From the IMG/VR virus record IMGVR_UViG_2778261165_000015: a DNA stretch of 4,766 nucleotides. One strand, written 5' to 3'. The notes under the pieces are model-generated. The model searched no databases. It worked only from the letters and a program-made list of their open reading frames with translations, and had not been told where the DNA came from. The number at the start of each line of letters is the position of its first letter. Positions within the stretch are counted from its first letter, which is position 1. Below are positions 1 through 4,766 of this stretch, in pieces. The position numbers and the translations under genes were made by a program. The DNA is from a virus. Taxonomy: Duplodnaviria; Heunggongvirae; Uroviricota; Caudoviricetes.

Positions 1-110
1 TGGAGATCACTGAATAACAAAATGAGTCAAAAGTGATCTCCATCGATGTTATTCAGCGATCTGTTCAAATGTTATTACCCGATCTCGATGGAAGTTATTG
101 AGTGATCTCC
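1..110. repeat. Array of GATC-containing 15-bp repeats (consensus GTTATTnnnYGATCT): direct copies at 48-62, 71-85 and 94-108 phased at exactly 23 bp, one inverted copy at 4-18, and a 9-bp inverted repeat GGAGATCAC / GTGATCTCC at 2-10 / 33-41
   Basis: Read directly: gttattcagcgatct (48-62), gttattacccgatct (71-85), gttattgagtgatct (94-108); agatcactgaataac (4-18) is the reverse complement of the consensus. GATC at 5, 36, 58, 81 and 104. The 23-bp period is not a multiple of 3, so this is a DNA-level signal, not a protein repeat. Confidence 0.8.
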
Positions 111-1851
111 TTTCATGAAAATACGCATCTTTAGCTAACTCTGGTAATTTAGCTTGTGCTTCCATTCGTTCAGGTGTAGAAGCTAATCTCTCATAACCTG
201 CATAGATAGCACTACCAGCTAATAACATATTCATAGGGTTTAGTCTTGATGGTTTCCCATTCTTTCTATTCACGTTATCCGCTGTAGTATCAGCGACCTG
301 ACCTAATCTTGTGATAGCAGTCATAAGCCCGTAAATACTTCTGGTTACACCAACAACTTTATTCACAGCAATAACACCAGCCAAGACTTTTAAACTATTA
401 ATCAAGCCAGAACCTAAAGCATCAACAACTTTCTTTTGTTCATCGGTTAAACCACGGTAAGCCAATGTCACCTCATCAAAGAAACCTCTCACCTTGTAAG
501 AAATATCAGTCAATGAATCGACACCATGTGACATATCAGTCATCAAGCTACCAAGAGATTCACCAAGACTTTTACCACTTCCACCTAAACTGTTTAAAAG
601 CGTTGTTAGGCTTCTTGTGAAATCTTGAAGACCATTTTCAGAACCTCTGAAGATACTATCAAGCGTGGTATTCCAAGAGTTTTTCAGGTTCCCTAGTTGT
701 GCCTGAGTACTTTCTGAAATAGTTTTCCAGCCACCTTTAGCGGTGATTTGTTTATTCAGTTCCTGAGTGACCTTCTGAAGAGTATCGGCAGATTTTAAAG
801 CCCCCTTCTTCATGGCATCAAATAGCTCTTGTTCATTCCTTCCGATTGCTTTAGCGAATACCTGAACCATACCAGGAACAGCTTCAGCTAATTGCCCCTT
901 AAGCTCTTCAGCCATAACCTGACCCTTACCAGCCATCTGTGATAATGCTGTCAGTGCTCGCTTAATCTCTTCTTCACTTCTCCCCATCAGACGAGCATAG
1001 CCAATCATATTTTTAAAAAGTTCTTCAGAACCTTGAATGCCCATAGACTCTTTAGCTGAAGCACCAAAACCAGCAAACTGTGATTGCAGTTCAGCGATAT
1101 CTAAACCCGTTGTTTGAGCTAATGACTTTGTGAACTCTTTTACTTGAACTGCATCTTTATCAAATACGAAATCAATTGAACGTTCAGCACTTGCACGCTG
1201 TAAACCAATTTCCATAATCTTCTGATAACTGGCTAATACAGCCTGCATTGAGATAAATGCACCTGCTGTTTTAACTGCCGCTGAAGACAGGTTATCAAGA
1301 CTATTAGCTGCTCTGTCACCATTAATGCTGGTGGATGTATGACCTTTAGCTTTAGCAATTGCTTCTCTGACTGAAGCATTTAACTGAGCTAACTTCTCAT
1401 TGAATTTTGAAGAATCCATTGACCCAGCTTTAGCAGATAGCCCGTAAAACTGAGATTTGATGTATTTCTGCAAAATAGGGTCGAAGCCTTTCAGCTTGCT
1501 CATGTTAGCCTGATAAGCTGCTCTTACAGCTCGGTCACCAGTATTTACTCTTGGCTGTCTTGGCTGTCTAAGTGGCTTTAAAGTATCCTCAATTTCCGTT
1601 TTAATCTTAAACGCTTTAGTGTTTTTAAGACGCTGCTCAATCTTGGAAACAGTTTTATCGACATTCTTTTCCATTAGTTTGAGAGAATCATTTAAAGGCG
1701 TAGGATTCACTTTAAACGCCTTATTCAATCGCTTCTCAATTCGTGATGCTACCTGCATCGTTTGTTTCTCGGCTTTTTCCAGACCTTTTAAAACTTTCTG
1801 AGAGTTAAAACTTAACTCAATCAGAAAATCATCAACTTTAAACTGTGCCAT
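49..1851 (-). CDS. Phage tail tape measure protein, lambda gpH-like (600 aa)
   Basis: 600-aa ORF with TAA stop at 49-51. N-terminus MAQFKVDDFLIELSF resembles the lambda H N-terminus as I recall it (MAEPVGDLVVDLSL). Central segment ALTALSQMAGKGQVMAEELKGQLAEAVPGMVQVFAKAIG matches the tape-measure-domain signature from memory. Helical, Ala/Leu/Lys/Gln-rich composition and a hydrophobic C-terminal stretch fit the family. SD AAGAGGTG lies 11 nt upstream of the ATG; an in-frame TGA two codons upstream fixes the start. Not verified by search. Confidence 0.75.
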   Translation of the reverse strand: MAQFKVDDFLIELSFNSQKVLKGLEKAEKQTMQVASRIEKRLNKAFKVNPTPLNDSLKLMEKNVDKTVSKIEQRLKNTKAFKIKTEIEDTLKPLRQPRQPRVNTGDRAVRAAYQANMSKLKGFDPILQKYIKSQFYGLSAKAGSMDSSKFNEKLAQLNASVREAIAKAKGHTSTSINGDRAANSLDNLSSAAVKTAGAFISMQAVLASYQKIMEIGLQRASAERSIDFVFDKDAVQVKEFTKSLAQTTGLDIAELQSQFAGFGASAKESMGIQGSEELFKNMIGYARLMGRSEEEIKRALTALSQMAGKGQVMAEELKGQLAEAVPGMVQVFAKAIGRNEQELFDAMKKGALKSADTLQKVTQELNKQITAKGGWKTISESTQAQLGNLKNSWNTTLDSIFRGSENGLQDFTRSLTTLLNSLGGSGKSLGESLGSLMTDMSHGVDSLTDISYKVRGFFDEVTLAYRGLTDEQKKVVDALGSGLINSLKVLAGVIAVNKVVGVTRSIYGLMTAITRLGQVADTTADNVNRKNGKPSRLNPMNMLLAGSAIYAGYERLASTPERMEAQAKLPELAKDAYFHERRSLNNFHRDRVITFEQIAE

Positions 1852-1934: not shown

Positions 1935-1961
1935 ACATAGGATTCGATAGAAGACTATCTC

Positions 1962-2010
1962 ATATACAAAAAAGGGAGAAACTACCGATATCACTCGATA
2001 ATCTCTCCCG
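1962..2010 (-). terminator. Rho-independent terminator downstream of the 69-aa gene
   Basis: Minus-strand RNA reads GGGAGAG...UUCUCCC (stem from 1974-1979 / 2004-2009, with an inner UAUC/GAUA helix) followed immediately by UUUUUUGUAU (A-run 1968-1973 on plus). Sits ~25 nt after the stop of the 2034..2243 CDS. Confidence 0.6.
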
Positions 2011-2267: not shown

Positions 2268-2978
2268 TCAAAGTGCTTTGCTGTATTTCTGAGAAATCTT
2301 AGTAAGCTGCTCAATATCAGCCTGCATAGCAATCTTCTTCTGTGATTCATATTCACTAATAATCGCTTTCATGCTATCAAGTTCTTTTTTAAGCTTTTGC
2401 TTTAACTTATCCAGCTTATCGGAGTAATGCTTAGTCAGATTAGCTTCAGCTAGCTGAAGAATCTCTTCATCTGTTTTATCAGTCATCAGAACAAATTGAC
2501 CAGAACCCCTTAATGCTTGTCTGACATCAATTAACCGGAACCCTTCAGGGATACTTTGAAGAACTTTAGGAACGTCTTCAATCGCTGTACCAAAACCATC
2601 ATTAAAGTTCCCTTCATAATAGATAAACGGGTTTGACTTAATCTCGTAAGCAATATCATATTCTGAAGGTTTCGAGGTTTCTTCGAAGTTCTTAACAGCA
2701 TCGTAAGCAATATCAAGTCTAAGACGCTGTGATTTTAAAGCTGGGTAATATTCACGCTCAAGATTAAATAGTGCTTCACTTTTGCAGATATCTGGCATTT
2801 CTTGAGGTTCAGGAGACACAAAGGTAATTTCCTTTGGTGACATCTTTAGCGATTGCTCAAGCTTAATTCTTTCATCGTGTTCTTTACGCTGAATAGCGAT
2901 AGCTGGATGTTCAGTCGTTGGTGACCAGTCACCGAAGCTATCAATCACTTTGCCATTAATGTAAATATCGTTTGTCAT
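2268..2978 (-). CDS. Hypothetical protein (236 aa) with a C-terminal coiled-coil-like region
   Basis: ORF with SD GAGG 9 nt upstream of the ATG. C-terminal ~60 residues are heptad-like and K/E/L/Q-rich (KLDKLKQKLKKELDSMKAIISEYESQKKIAMQADIEQL). No recognisable catalytic motif. Confidence 0.7.
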   Translation of the reverse strand: MTNDIYINGKVIDSFGDWSPTTEHPAIAIQRKEHDERIKLEQSLKMSPKEITFVSPEPQEMPDICKSEALFNLEREYYPALKSQRLRLDIAYDAVKNFEETSKPSEYDIAYEIKSNPFIYYEGNFNDGFGTAIEDVPKVLQSIPEGFRLIDVRQALRGSGQFVLMTDKTDEEILQLAEANLTKHYSDKLDKLKQKLKKELDSMKAIISEYESQKKIAMQADIEQLTKISQKYSKAL

Positions 2979-3003
2979 TATTTTTTTCCTCTAAGTGTGG
3001 TTA

Positions 3004-3081
3004 TTTCTTAATAGAGCACCTTCAACGCCAATACACTTAGAAGATGACTTAACGATTTATTAAAGATGCTCTATTAAGAAA
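3004..3081. repeat. Perfect 15-bp inverted repeat (TTTCTTAATAGAGCA) with arms at 3004-3018 and 3067-3081, 48-bp spacer
   Basis: Read directly; the reverse complement of 3067-3081 equals 3004-3018 exactly. Lies between hairpin H1 and the RBS of the 236-aa gene. Confidence 0.75.
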
Positions 3082-3110
3082 AGCCCTAAACATAATCTGT
3101 GAAGGGCTTT
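3071..3110 (-). terminator. Terminator-like hairpin H1 (AAAGCCCT / AGGGCTTT stem, 15-nt loop) followed by UUUUCUU on the minus strand
   Basis: Stem 3080-3087 / 3103-3110. The U-tract overlaps one arm of the 15-bp inverted repeat. Short stem, so termination is likely partial. Confidence 0.4.
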
Positions 3111-3170
3111 GAAGGTTTGCTTTATAACGTTAACGAAGTTTCAGGAAAAACTTTCTTTAAAAGCTCTGTT

Positions 3171-3209
3171 TAAAAACTCTTAAAGAAAGCCCTAATCATG
3201 AGTTAGGGC
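3171..3209 (-). terminator. Rho-independent terminator H2 (GCCCTAA / TTAGGGC stem, 7-nt loop) followed by UUUCUUUAAGAGUUUUU
   Basis: Perfect 7-bp stem at 3189-3195 / 3203-3209 with a U-rich tract on the minus strand. Shares the AAGAAA(A)GCCCTAA module with H1. Confidence 0.55.
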
Positions 3210-3255
3210 AAAGCTGTAAAGGATTCAAACGAATGAACAAAGACTTTTTGAGATA

Positions 3256-3280
3256 GCCTCTCAAGTTATATAAGAGAGGC
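3256..3280 (-). other. Stem-loop H3 (GCCTCTC / GAGAGGC, 11-nt loop) within the leader; no adjacent U-tract
   Basis: Perfect 7-bp inverted repeat read directly; flanks are not U-rich on either strand, so probably not a terminator. Confidence 0.4.
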
Positions 3281-3377
3281 CATGACGAAAAGCATTGCAC
3301 CTTTCCAACTCAGAATATCCATCCATCGGATTATTGAAAATATGATTTTAGGAAAAATTGCTCTTCCTATATATACA

Positions 3378-3406
3378 ATTATGTCATGCTCAAGGTTATT
3401 TGTCAA
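3378..3406 (-). promoter_or_regulatory. Near-consensus sigma70-type promoter: -35 TTGACA, 17-bp spacer, extended -10 TGaCATAAT
   Basis: Minus strand reads gctgTTGACAaataaccttgagcaTGaCATAATtgtatat. -35 is 6/6, spacer 17, -10 is 5/6 with a TG at -15/-14. Predicted start site near 3371, transcribing toward the terminators and the 236-aa gene. Confidence 0.55.
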
Positions 3407-3431
3407 CAGCTTTTAACAGATTGATAACAAT

Positions 3432-3497
3432 CTATACTTTAATAGACGCACCTGCAATCATACCAACCAATACAAAACAGATAATCACCAATTCCAT
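3432..3497 (-). CDS. Candidate 21-aa hydrophobic micro-protein (MELVIICFVLVGMIAGASIKV), a single predicted transmembrane helix
   Basis: Not in the supplied ORF track (too short). ATG overlaps the upstream TAA stop (TAATG). SD AAGGTGG sits 7 nt upstream. A 17-residue uninterrupted hydrophobic core is flanked by E and K. TAG stop at 3432-3434. Confidence 0.4.
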   Translation of the reverse strand: MELVIICFVLVGMIAGASIKV

Positions 3498-4345: not shown

Positions 4346-4581
4346 TAAACCTCCATCGCTAATTTGTGAATTTTGATACTTAGTAACCTTGCTAAATCCA
4401 GTCCAAAAGCATTTAAAGATTTCAGACTATCAAGGTCATCTTTCTTAATCCTGACATGGTGTCTTGCTGCCTCTAAACGACTATTAAGCAAATCCTGCTC
4501 GTTAATATCACGGTTAATTGCAAGCTTCATCACTGCTGAGTGCTGAGAGATCCCCTCATAATTTCCCCAAAGCGTAACCAT
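4345..4581 (-). CDS. Hypothetical protein (78 aa as drawn; start uncertain)
   Basis: ORF whose stop overlaps the start of the 128-aa gene. No convincing SD before ATG 4581 or the internal GTG/ATG at codons 17/18. The first 26 nt overlap the upstream partial ORF. Confidence 0.45.
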   Translation of the reverse strand: MVTLWGNYEGISQHSAVMKLAINRDINEQDLLNSRLEAARHHVRIKKDDLDSLKSLNAFGLDLARLLSIKIHKLAMEV

Positions 4582-4766
4582 GTGTGAATAAATTTTGAGC
4601 TAGTAGGGTTGCAGCCACGAGTAAGTCTTCCCTTGTTATTGTGTAGCCAGAATGCCGCAAAACTTCCATGCCTAAGCGAACTGTTGAGAGTACGTTTCGA
4701 TTTCTGACTGTGTTAGCCTGGAAGTGCTTGTCCCAACCTTGTTTCTGAGCATGAACGCCCGCAAGC
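4556..4766 (-). CDS. 3' end of a gene whose 5' part lies beyond the window (69 codons visible, C-terminus ...LFTHGYALGKL)
   Basis: Stop-free minus-strand frame from the window edge to TGA at 4556-4558, not in the supplied track because no start is in the window. GC content here is visibly higher (~47%) than the rest. Confidence 0.45.
   Translation of the reverse strand, partial: LAGVHAQKQGWDKHFQANTVRNRNVLSTVRLGMEVLRHSGYTITREDLLVAATLLAQNLFTHGYALGKL

What the first reader, a model, noticed from the sequence alone, without database searches (positions are those of the whole stretch)
2979..3406. Strong promoter followed by a ~390-nt leader with tandem terminators: an antitermination-type switch or a small RNA
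The promoter at 3378-3406 is near consensus with an extended -10. The first translatable gene downstream starts at 2978, and the transcript must first pass hairpin H3, terminator H2 (~180 nt from the predicted start) and terminator-like H1. This resembles the lambdoid late promoter with its short terminated 6S transcript that needs a Q-type antiterminator for read-through. Alternatively it encodes a ~180-300-nt small RNA. Candidate small ORFs in the leader lack ribosome binding sites.
Basis: partly seen in the sequence, partly recalled or inferred. Interest (0 to 1): 0.65.

Follow-up and report, generated by a model that had tools for sequence, protein, structure and literature searches.

The report
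Conserved terminated leader RNA gating tail-genes
A very strong promoter in a small mobile island of E. coli makes a highly folded, non-coding RNA that should mostly stop at built-in terminators; any read-through folds a long hairpin that hides the ribosome-binding site of the next gene, so this looks like a conserved, previously undescribed double lock (and possibly a small regulatory RNA) in front of a phage-tail gene module.

Summary
On the minus strand there is a near-consensus promoter (3406-3378), a 393-nt untranslated leader, hairpin H3, and terminator-like hairpins H2 and H1 before the 236-aa gene. Its loop is complementary to the Shine-Dalgarno region of that gene.

The unit lies in a ~12-kb low-GC island carrying a serine integrase and a Felixounavirus-like tape-measure and Dit module. 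About 9% of complete E. coli genomes have it, as do Citrobacter, Salmonella, Shigella and E. albertii.

Across 58 diverged copies, the promoter, a 20-nt core, H3, H1, P1 and the anti-SD/SD complementarity persist. This holds even where flanking proteins share only 25% identity. H3 shows compensatory changes, and P1 occurs as four unrelated sequences. G·U pairs and fold z-scores (-8.2 versus -3.4) place the structure in minus-strand RNA.

There is no Rfam match, no conserved ORF, and no similar sequence in the phage or plasmid collections.

Most likely it is a stable terminated RNA that also locks the downstream tail operon by termination plus SD sequestration. The releasing signal is unknown. 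A lambdoid Q-type mechanism is not supported. A trans-acting sRNA role remains open.

The parts
3432..3497 (-). Unannotated 21-aa hydrophobic peptide gene (MELVIICFVLVGMIAGASIKV). Its ATG overlaps the TAA stop of the 107-aa gene. It ends 26 nt upstream of the -35 and marks the upstream boundary of the unit.
   Evidence: translation. A 20-28 aa hydrophobic ORF is present in all homologues.
3407..3416 (-). A/T-rich UP-element-like tract (TTAAAAGCTG) directly upstream of the -35.
   Evidence: Read from the sequence. It is A/T-rich in all variants, including the divergent L016, L140, L141 and L144. The UP-element assignment rests on general knowledge, not a test.
3378..3406 (-). Sigma-70 promoter: TTGACA, 17 nt, (TG)n CATAAT.
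   Evidence: 11/12 with TG. The -35 is invariant and the -10 is 95% conserved in 57 copies. Variant -10 hexamers GATGAT, GAAGAT, TAAGAT and TAATAT keep A2 and T6.
3349..3369 (-). 5'-proximal hairpin starting at about +3 of the transcript.
   Evidence: All 29 distinct variants fold into a 5-10 bp hairpin. Examples: GGAAGAG/UUUUUCC, GGGAGAG/CUCUCUU, AGAGAGA/UCUCUCU, GGGGU/AUCCC.
3306..3348 (-). Variable module. In the window it is A/U-rich with a (GATG)2 repeat. In homologues it carries alternative hairpins or 27-28-nt mini-hairpin inserts.
3286..3305 (-). Nearly invariant core GAAAGGUGCAAUGCUUUUCG. The 3' half pairs with CAAAAAG after H3. The 5' half (AAAGGUGCAAUG) is SD/AUG-like and predicted to be mostly unpaired.
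   Evidence: 96% identity across 57 copies. It is the most widely detectable segment in distant copies. Pairing of the 3' half: (I2). No conserved ORF.
3253..3283 (-). Hairpin H3 (10-13 bp).
   Evidence: 21 distinct variants, 99.2% of cells paired, 4 of 12 pairs with compensatory changes, 0/500 shuffles reach the observed values, slid controls 32-51% paired. It has many G·U pairs.
3179..3209 (-). H2 intrinsic-terminator-like hairpin plus U-tract. Predicted 3' end about 190 nt from the start.
   Evidence: Compensatory GCCCUC/GAGGGC versions occur in L140 and L141. The H2-hp4 segment is missing from 20-21 of 55 copies.
3151..3188 (-). Hairpin hp4 (15-16 bp, A/U-rich). Its 5' strand is the U-tract of H2. 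H2 plus hp4 is a paralogous duplicate of H1 plus the base of P1.
   Evidence: I4 and direct repeat D1, 3071-3093 / 3177-3199. A compensatory UUCAAG/CUUUGAAG version occurs in L016 and L140.
3073..3110 (-). H1 intrinsic-terminator-like hairpin (outer AAAGCCCU/AGGGCUUU, inner 3-5 bp helix) plus U-tract. Predicted 3' end about 295 nt from the start. Present in every copy.
   Evidence: 27 variants, -12 to -21 kcal/mol; I7. L144 carries the hairpin in inverted form but still followed by U6.
3004..3081 (-). P1: 22-bp hairpin enclosing a 34-nt apical region. Its 5' strand is the U-tract of H1.
   Evidence: I1; -35.6 kcal/mol, z = -6.0. It occurs as four unrelated sequence types of 20-31 bp at the same position.
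3033..3044 (-). Anti-SD UCUUCUAAGUGU in the apical region of P1.
   Evidence: I5: 12 nt, 92% at DNA level, which is 12/12 counting one G·U in minus-strand RNA. Searches show that complementarity is kept in all 48 or more distinct modules and tracks the SD type.
2976..2998 (-). SD region ACACUUAGAGGA (2998-2987), spacer, and ATG (2978-2976) of the 236-aa gene.

Best explanation
A strong, probably constitutive sigma-70 promoter transcribes a stable, highly structured non-coding RNA. Its elements are a 5' hairpin, an invariant core, H3 and small hairpins. The RNA should mostly end at the intrinsic terminator H1. In the window and about two thirds of copies it may end earlier, at the duplicated terminator H2. 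This predicts RNAs of about 190 and 295 nt.

The same unit acts in cis as a double lock on the downstream tail-module operon (236-aa coiled-coil protein, 69-aa protein, tape-measure protein, Dit-like protein).
- Lock 1: transcription must read through H2 and H1.
- Lock 2: read-through RNA folds the 22-bp hairpin P1. Its apical loop pairs with the Shine-Dalgarno region of the first gene, forming a pseudoknot-type sequestration that keeps translation low.

Release presumably needs a trans-acting signal. The island looks like a phage satellite or defence element, so the most likely source is an infecting helper phage. RNase III cleavage of the long P1 duplex, which would detach the anti-SD, is another possibility.

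Status of each step:
- Shown here: the anatomy, its conservation, covariation of H3, P1 and anti-SD/SD, and the strand.
- Inferred: promoter activity, termination efficiency, translational repression, and the nature of the releasing signal.
For: Promoter:
- Quality and invariance of the promoter.

Structure and strand:
- The leader folds far better than shuffles on the minus strand (z = -8.2) than on the plus strand (z = -3.4).
- H3 shows covariation with G·U intermediates.
- The 5' hairpin is kept in 29 variants.

Terminators:
- H1 plus U-tract is present in all 58 copies, in 27 or more sequence versions, including one inverted version that keeps the U-tract.
- H2 and hp4 show compensatory variants.

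P1 and the anti-SD:
- P1 is present as four unrelated sequences of 20-31 bp, at -25 to -44 kcal/mol.
- The loop:SD duplex is -13 to -22 kcal/mol in all 48 distinct modules, with z = -2.6 to -6.2 against shuffled loops.
- Cognate loop/SD pairs are more stable than swapped ones: A-A -17.1, B-B -16.9 and C-C -13.6, against -8.4 to -14.5 for A/B/C mismatches.
- The SD itself changes from CUUAGAGGA to GAGGUGAA, and the loop changes with it.

Depth of conservation and coding status:
- The architecture persists where the flanking proteins are only 25% identical.
- No conserved ORF exists on either strand.
- No other promoter-like site lies between H1 and the ATG.
Against: - There are no expression data. 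The start site, termination and repression are all predictions.
- No conserved alternative (antiterminator) pairing was found, so nothing in the RNA itself explains how the locks would open.
- The near-invariance of the core (96%) is not explained by a pure terminator/SD-lock function. It points to an additional sequence-specific role.
- The H2-hp4 segment is missing from 20-21 of 55 copies, so 'tandem' termination is not essential.
- Loop and SD lie about 45 nt apart. Part of their co-variation could therefore reflect inheritance as one recombination block.
- The pseudoknot geometry, with a 6-8-nt linker beside a 22-bp stem, is untested.
Confidence: 0.55

Rival explanations
1. The main product is a trans-acting small RNA of about 190-295 nt. 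Its invariant, partly single-stranded core base-pairs with mRNAs of the island, the host or a helper phage, as the satellite-encoded SviR of Vibrio PLE does. The terminators simply define its 3' end. This is not exclusive of the best explanation.
For: - It has its own strong promoter, a 5' stabilising hairpin and Rho-independent terminators.
- The 20-nt core is 96% identical across copies that are otherwise mosaic. It is the segment that survives in the most distant copies.
- Precedent: SviR is a roughly 210-nt intergenic sRNA of a serine-integrase satellite. [quoted passage not shown]
Against: - No target was found. The only strong complement in the island is the trivial antisense strand.
- No similar sequence exists in the phage or plasmid collections.
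- This model does not explain P1 or the anti-SD.
Confidence: 0.3
2. This is a lambdoid-type late switch. A Q-like protein loads onto RNA polymerase at the promoter and makes it read through H2 and H1, and the short RNA is the equivalent of 6S RNA.
For: - A strong promoter followed by intrinsic terminators at about +190 and +295, before a morphogenetic operon.
- The promoter spacer is unusually conserved (92%). It could be a binding site.
Against: - No Q-family or other antiterminator domain is found in any island protein.
- -10-like hexamers in +1..+30 differ in position and sequence between copies, as expected by chance in A/T-rich sequence.
- L144 has an unrelated spacer.
- The operon is of Felixounavirus type, not lambdoid.
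Confidence: 0.07
3. This is leader-peptide attenuation. The SD-like AAAGGUG plus AUG in the core starts a short ORF (MLFVMASLI in the window). Its translation melts H3 and modulates termination.
For: The SD-like motif, the AUG and the first three codons (Met-Leu-Phe) are invariant.
Against: - ORF length ranges from 5 to 49 codons.
- The frame and the stop position relative to H3, H2 and H1 are not conserved.
- One covarying H3 base pair alone switches the ORF from 5 to 8 or more codons.
Confidence: 0.05
4. The inverted repeats act at the DNA level, for example as an origin, a packaging site or operators, rather than as RNA.
For: The region is dense in inverted repeats in an element that must replicate and be packaged if it is a satellite.
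Against: - The helices contain many G·U pairs that would be A·C mismatches on the other strand: 36 of 243 cells in H3, 2 in P1 and 1 in the anti-SD/SD pair.
- The fold z-score is -8.2 on one strand against -3.4 on the other.
- The elements sit in promoter, terminator, SD order.
Confidence: 0.03

Closest known systems
Phage P1/P7 c4 and satellite P4 CI immunity RNAs (Rfam C4 antisense RNA family)
   Same: In both, an RNA made from the leader of an operon carries exposed sequences complementary to sites further down the same transcript, including a ribosome-binding site. This keeps downstream genes off through translational block or premature termination. P4 is also a satellite. This comparison rests on my own knowledge of the published systems.
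   Different: - There is no sequence or structure match to the Rfam family.
- Here the anti-SD sits in the loop of a 22-bp hairpin only about 45 nt from its target, so it can act purely in cis.
- No evidence for RNase P processing or for two-site (a/b) recognition.
SviR, the sRNA of the Vibrio cholerae PLE satellite
   Same: Both are an intergenic, roughly 200-300-nt RNA in a small serine-integrase island. Promoter, core or seed, and intrinsic terminator are the most conserved parts. Both lie upstream of an operon they may regulate.
   Different: - No homology.
- The SviR promoter is induced by phage infection, whereas this promoter looks constitutive.
- SviR targets are known, and none is known here.
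- SviR has no described SD-sequestering hairpin.
Lambdoid PR'-qut-tR' late switch with 6S RNA
   Same: A strong promoter, a short terminated transcript, and read-through needed for late genes.
   Different: No Q gene, no conserved pause element, and a different kind of operon.
SD-sequestering leader hairpins and pseudoknots, and RNase III-processed leaders (lambda N leader, T7 early processing sites, rpsO and gene 32 leaders)
   Same: A long stable hairpin just upstream of a ribosome-binding site. Occlusion of the SD by a complementary segment. A duplex of 20 bp or more is a plausible RNase III substrate. This comparison rests on my own knowledge.
   Different: - The anti-SD is presented from the apical loop rather than forming the stem.
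- No autoregulatory protein is known.
- Cleavage is untested.
Type III toxin-antitoxin loci (ToxIN-like)
   Same: The order is promoter, structured RNA, terminator, then protein gene.
   Different: - There is no tandem array of RNA repeats. The only tandem repeat is a weak 13-nt, 2.7-copy A/T repeat inside hp4.
- The downstream protein has no ToxN, AbiE or other defence-family match.

Membership tests
Lambdoid Q-dependent late promoter (PR'/6S/tR') | Strong sigma-70 promoter followed by an intrinsic terminator within about 200 nt | tested here: met
   (sequence level only).
Lambdoid Q-dependent late promoter (PR'/6S/tR') | Q antiterminator gene in the element, normally directly upstream | tested here: not met
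   No Q or antiterminator family in any island protein against Pfam, PHROGs or NCBIfam. The 107-aa neighbour's model resembles a tandem RHH protein.
Lambdoid Q-dependent late promoter (PR'/6S/tR') | Conserved -10-like sigma-dependent pause element in the initial transcribed region | tested here: inconclusive
   -10-like hexamers occur in 50 of 56 copies, but at varying positions and with varying sequences, in A/T-rich sequence.
C4 antisense RNA family (P1 c4 / P4 CI) | Match to the Rfam covariance model | tested here: not met
   No hit, even at E <= 5.
C4 antisense RNA family (P1 c4 / P4 CI) | Leader-derived RNA with exposed sequence complementary to the RBS of a downstream gene on the same transcript | tested here: met
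   This shows the same principle, not homology.
C4 antisense RNA family (P1 c4 / P4 CI) | Processing of the RNA out of the leader (RNase P) and action in trans | not testable with these tools
   Needs RNA end mapping.
Trans-acting sRNA (SviR-like, satellite-encoded) | Own promoter and Rho-independent terminator, non-coding | tested here: met
Trans-acting sRNA (SviR-like, satellite-encoded) | Conserved seed with complementary target(s) | tested here: inconclusive
   The invariant core is present. No target was found in the island. Helper phage and host were not searchable.
Type III toxin-antitoxin | Tandem direct repeats of the antitoxin RNA unit | tested here: not met
Type III toxin-antitoxin | ToxN/AbiE-type toxin downstream of the terminator | tested here: not met
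   No family match. The model is a coiled-coil hairpin with no significant fold match.
Intrinsic (Rho-independent) terminators | G+C-rich stem followed directly by a U-tract, conserved in relatives | tested here: met
   H2. H1.
SD-sequestering cis-regulatory leader | Complementarity to the SD that is maintained when the SD changes | tested here: met
   Types A/D, B and C.
RNase III-processed leader hairpin | Near-perfect duplex of about 20 bp or more | tested here: met
   22 bp in the window, 20-31 bp in relatives.
RNase III-processed leader hairpin | Cleavage by RNase III | not testable with these tools
   Needs an rnc mutant or an in vitro assay.

The most novel reading that the evidence does not exclude
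The RNA is the regulatory hub of an undescribed family of enterobacterial phage satellites or defence islands. These islands carry a serine integrase plus a Felixounavirus-like tape-measure, chaperone and Dit module. In this reading, the abundant RNA, through its invariant core, senses or targets a virulent helper phage. The terminators and the c4-like loop anti-SD keep the tail-interference module silent until infection.
Probability: 0.2. Interest if true: 0.8.

Novelty: new variant of a known kind. Interest (0 to 1): 0.6.

Why it matters
- It would add a well-supported RNA family that Rfam release 15 does not match. The family occurs in about 9% of complete E. coli genomes and in several other Enterobacteriaceae.
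- It combines two classical locks, terminators and a loop-presented anti-SD, in one leader. Natural sequence swaps (four P1 types, three SD types) already amount to a compensatory-mutation experiment.
- It flags the surrounding 12-kb island as a candidate new phage satellite or anti-phage element. The island carries only the tape-measure part of a Felix-O1-like tail.
- The unit is small and modular, so its logic is directly testable with reporter fusions and phage infection.

Tried and rejected
RNA and DNA similarity:
- Rfam at a permissive threshold gave only chance miRNA or snoRNA-like hits on the long hairpin.
- No similarity was found in 50,697 phage records or 72,556 plasmids.

Coding potential:
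- ORFs were checked on both strands. Neither the sense mini-ORF nor the 44-aa antisense ORF is conserved.

Targets and alternative pairings:
- A search for intra-island targets of the core gave nothing beyond the antisense strand.
- Candidate antiterminator pairings were not conserved across module types and were dropped. These were the H2 3' strand with the H1 5' strand, the module-2 'CUAGGGAUAG' with H1, and I6 (3116-3105 / 3029-3018).
- Complementarity between the peptide gene and the leader (I8) does not covary.

Alignment problems:
- RNAalifold on a plain MAFFT alignment failed for H3 because of 2-nt register shifts. I re-ran on trimmed hairpins.

Flanking proteins:
- 236-aa protein: no family match. 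The AlphaFold model (pLDDT 75) is a coiled-coil hairpin with no significant fold match. PGAP's name 'transposase' has no support.
- 107-aa protein: only a weak tandem-RHH resemblance.

Literature and strain checks:
- Searches for the island at tonB/yciI or yecE, or for a matching satellite, found nothing relevant.
- One search listed only eight O157-type genomes with the O157 copy at 99% identity or more. Sakai and EDL933 were not among the rows shown. I therefore did not pursue published EHEC sRNA catalogues. The identification with SpLE2 was left unresolved.

Full report
**Context**

All genes in the window lie on the minus strand. The right end (4553-4766) is an IS10/ISVsa5 end, and the left end (1-127) matches an unrelated repeated sequence.

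The rest of the window belongs to a low-GC island of about 12 kb in the E. coli chromosome. It is inserted between tonB and yciI or, in some O157:H7 strains, inside yecE. The island encodes:
- a large serine recombinase;
- a Dit-like tail protein;
- a tape-measure protein;
- a 69-71-aa protein;
- the 236-aa protein;
- a 101-109-aa protein, followed by an unannotated hydrophobic peptide;
- a few small variable genes (a 128-aa weak-HTH protein, or an HNH endonuclease plus a 71-aa protein);
- an HNH-AP2 endonuclease.

The closest phage relatives of the tape-measure protein are Felixounaviruses, at 30-36% identity. In those phages the gene order is chaperone, chaperone, tape-measure, then a 266-aa protein. 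This parallels the island's 236-aa, 69-aa, tape-measure, Dit-like order.

The exact copy in the window occurs in two chicken isolates, where the island is riddled with IS elements. Relatives of the 561-nt intergenic query occur in 475 of 5426 complete E. coli genomes, at 69-100% identity. They also occur in E. albertii, Escherichia sp., Citrobacter, Salmonella and Shigella.

**Observation**

The promoter is TTGACA, 17 nt, CATAAT with TG. It lies at 3406-3378 and is the best site in the window at 11/12. A start near 3371 and the ATG at 2978 give a 393-nt leader.

The leader RNA folds at -123.4 kcal/mol, z = -8.2 against dinucleotide shuffles. The opposite strand reaches only -91.8 kcal/mol, z = -3.4.

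The elements, in order:
- a 5' hairpin at 3369-3349;
- an A/U-rich variable module;
- the core GAAAGGUGCAAUGCUUUUCG at 3305-3286;
- H3 at 3283-3253;
- a small hairpin;
- H2 at 3209-3189 with its U-tract;
- hp4 at 3188-3151;
- H1 at 3110-3080 with its U-tract;
- P1, a 22-bp hairpin, at 3081-3004;
- the SD region at 2998-2987.

The repeat finder reports them independently as I1, I4 and I5.

**Comparative evidence**

I collected 57 distinct copies from E. coli genomes, GTDB genomes, IMG/VR and metagenomes. I added three more divergent copies through the flanking protein. The region is a mosaic of modules that reassort freely, which makes it a natural swap experiment.

Conservation relative to the window:

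| Element | Identity |
|---|---|
| -35 | 100% |
| spacer | 92% |
| -10 | 95% |
| core | 96% |
| post-H3 segment | 92% |
| peptide gene | 60% |

L144 keeps TTGACA and TGgCATAAT with an unrelated spacer and upstream region.

Helix by helix:
- H3 has 21 distinct versions. Of all cells, 99.2% are paired, 4 of 12 pairs show changes on both sides, and no shuffle out of 500 reaches the observed pairing or covariation. Slid registers pair at only 32-51%. The 36 G·U cells would be mismatches on the other strand.
- The 5' hairpin is kept in 29 versions.
- H1 exists in every copy in 27 or more versions. Inner-helix variants include ACA/UGU, AUAA/UUAU and AUAGC/GUUAU. One copy carries the inverted hairpin and still has a U6 tract.
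- H2 and hp4 are a duplicate of H1 and the P1 base (direct repeat D1). They are absent from 20-21 of 55 copies. Where divergent, they change in a compensatory way: GCCCUC/GAGGGC and UUCAAG/CUUUGAAG.

**The second lock**

P1 occurs as four unrelated sequences (types A-D) of 20-31 bp, at -25 to -44 kcal/mol. In every one of the 48 distinct 3' modules, the apical region can pair with the 22-24 nt upstream of the start codon. The duplex energy is -13 to -22 kcal/mol, z = -2.6 to -6.2 against shuffled loops.

The partners change together:

| Type | Loop (anti-SD) | SD region |
|---|---|---|
| A | UCUUCUAAGUGU | ACACUUAGAGGA |
| B | CCUCUUCUAAG | CUUAGAAGAGG |
| C | (A)UUCACCUC | GAGGUGAA(U) |
| D | UCCUCUAAG | UUUAGAGGA |

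Swapping loops and SD windows between types A, B and C costs 2.6 to 8.5 kcal/mol on average.

The copy in L016 has flanking proteins only 25% identical to those of the window. It still keeps the whole architecture.

**What it is not**

- Nothing matches in Rfam, or in the phage or plasmid collections.
- No ORF is conserved. The SD-like AAAGGUG plus AUG in the core heads ORFs of 5 to 49 codons with no conserved frame. The 44-aa antisense ORF is interrupted in most copies.
- There is no tandem RNA repeat array.
- No Q-like or other antiterminator protein is present.
- No positionally conserved pause element is present.
- The 236-aa protein has no family match. Its model is a coiled-coil hairpin with no significant fold match.
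- The model of the 107-aa protein has a β-α-α, β-α-α pattern with weak resemblance to TraY, Arc and VirC2 ribbon-helix-helix proteins (E about 0.02, TM 0.43-0.51). This would fit a DNA-binding regulator.

**Mechanism**

Shown: a conserved promoter, a conserved and covarying minus-strand RNA structure, conserved terminator-like hairpins with U-tracts, and a conserved SD-complementary loop.

Inferred:
- The promoter is strong and constitutive.
- Most transcripts end at H2 or H1, giving stable RNAs of about 190 and 295 nt protected by the 5' hairpin.
- Read-through RNA forms P1, and its loop sequesters the SD.
- The tail-module operon therefore stays silent until a trans-acting signal arrives.

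Candidate signals are a helper-phage factor, the RHH-like neighbour acting at the promoter, or RNase III cleavage of the 22-bp duplex. I found no conserved alternative pairing that could make the RNA a self-contained switch.

The near-invariant core is not explained by the lock function. It suggests a sequence-specific role, either as a binding site or as a seed for trans-acting regulation. SviR of the Vibrio PLE satellite is a precedent for the latter.

**Verdict**

The Q-type analogy is not supported, and the small-RNA alternative stays open. The closest mechanistic relatives are P1 c4 / P4 CI-type leader RNAs and SD-sequestering leaders. However, it is not a member of any described RNA family that I could test.

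Noticed in passing
window 3432-3497 (-): An unannotated 21-aa hydrophobic peptide gene (MELVIICFVLVGMIAGASIKV). It is translationally coupled (TAATG) to the 107-aa gene. It is conserved as a 20-28-aa hydrophobic ORF in all island copies, although its sequence diverges.
   Followed up: partly
homologous leaders (e.g. L005:8150-8182, L008, L009, L016); window 1940-1962 (-): Mini-hairpin modules of 27-30 nt with conserved flanks (GAGG-stem-loop-stem-CCGAA) but different stems. In different copies they are inserted at four alternative sites of the leader: after the start, before the core, inside the H1 loop and inside the H2 loop. The window's leader has none. A related copy (TGAGATAGTCTTCTATCGAATCC) lies just after the terminator upstream of the tape-measure gene. 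They could be protein-binding RNA hairpins or tiny mobile modules.
   Followed up: partly
window 1974-2009 (-): A strong terminator-like hairpin (15 pairs plus U6) lies between the 69-aa gene and the tape-measure gene. It is followed by a 7-bp hairpin with a 43-nt loop before the tape-measure SD. The operon therefore seems to be punctuated again.
   Followed up: no
whole window and L001:16680-28276, L005:2146-15348: The island combines a large serine recombinase, a Dit-like protein, a tape-measure protein 30-36% identical to those of Felixounaviruses, putative chaperone-position genes and HNH endonucleases. It has no capsid, terminase or recognisable replication genes. It occurs in about 9% of complete E. 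coli genomes at two or more integration sites, and it is highly mosaic. It looks like an undescribed satellite or anti-phage element.
   Followed up: partly
window 3320-3331 (-) and homologues: A (GATG)n tetranucleotide repeat in the variable module ranges from 2 to 5 copies between island copies.
   Followed up: no
L144:2700-2760 (+): In this divergent copy the H1 hairpin is present as the reverse complement of the usual sequence (AGCCCUAAACAG...CUGUGAAGGGCU). It is still followed by a U6 tract, which suggests hairpin inversion with terminator function retained.
   Followed up: no
window 2268-2978 (-): RefSeq/PGAP names many copies of the 236-aa protein 'transposase'. No family, structure or fold search supports that name.
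   Followed up: yes
window 1-127 and 4553-4766: Both window ends are foreign to the island. The right end is IS10/ISVsa5 and truncates the 93-aa gene to 78 aa. The left 127 nt match a repeated sequence also found in some coliphage records, and the tape-measure ORF is shortened to 600 aa, against about 700 aa in intact copies.
   Followed up: partly
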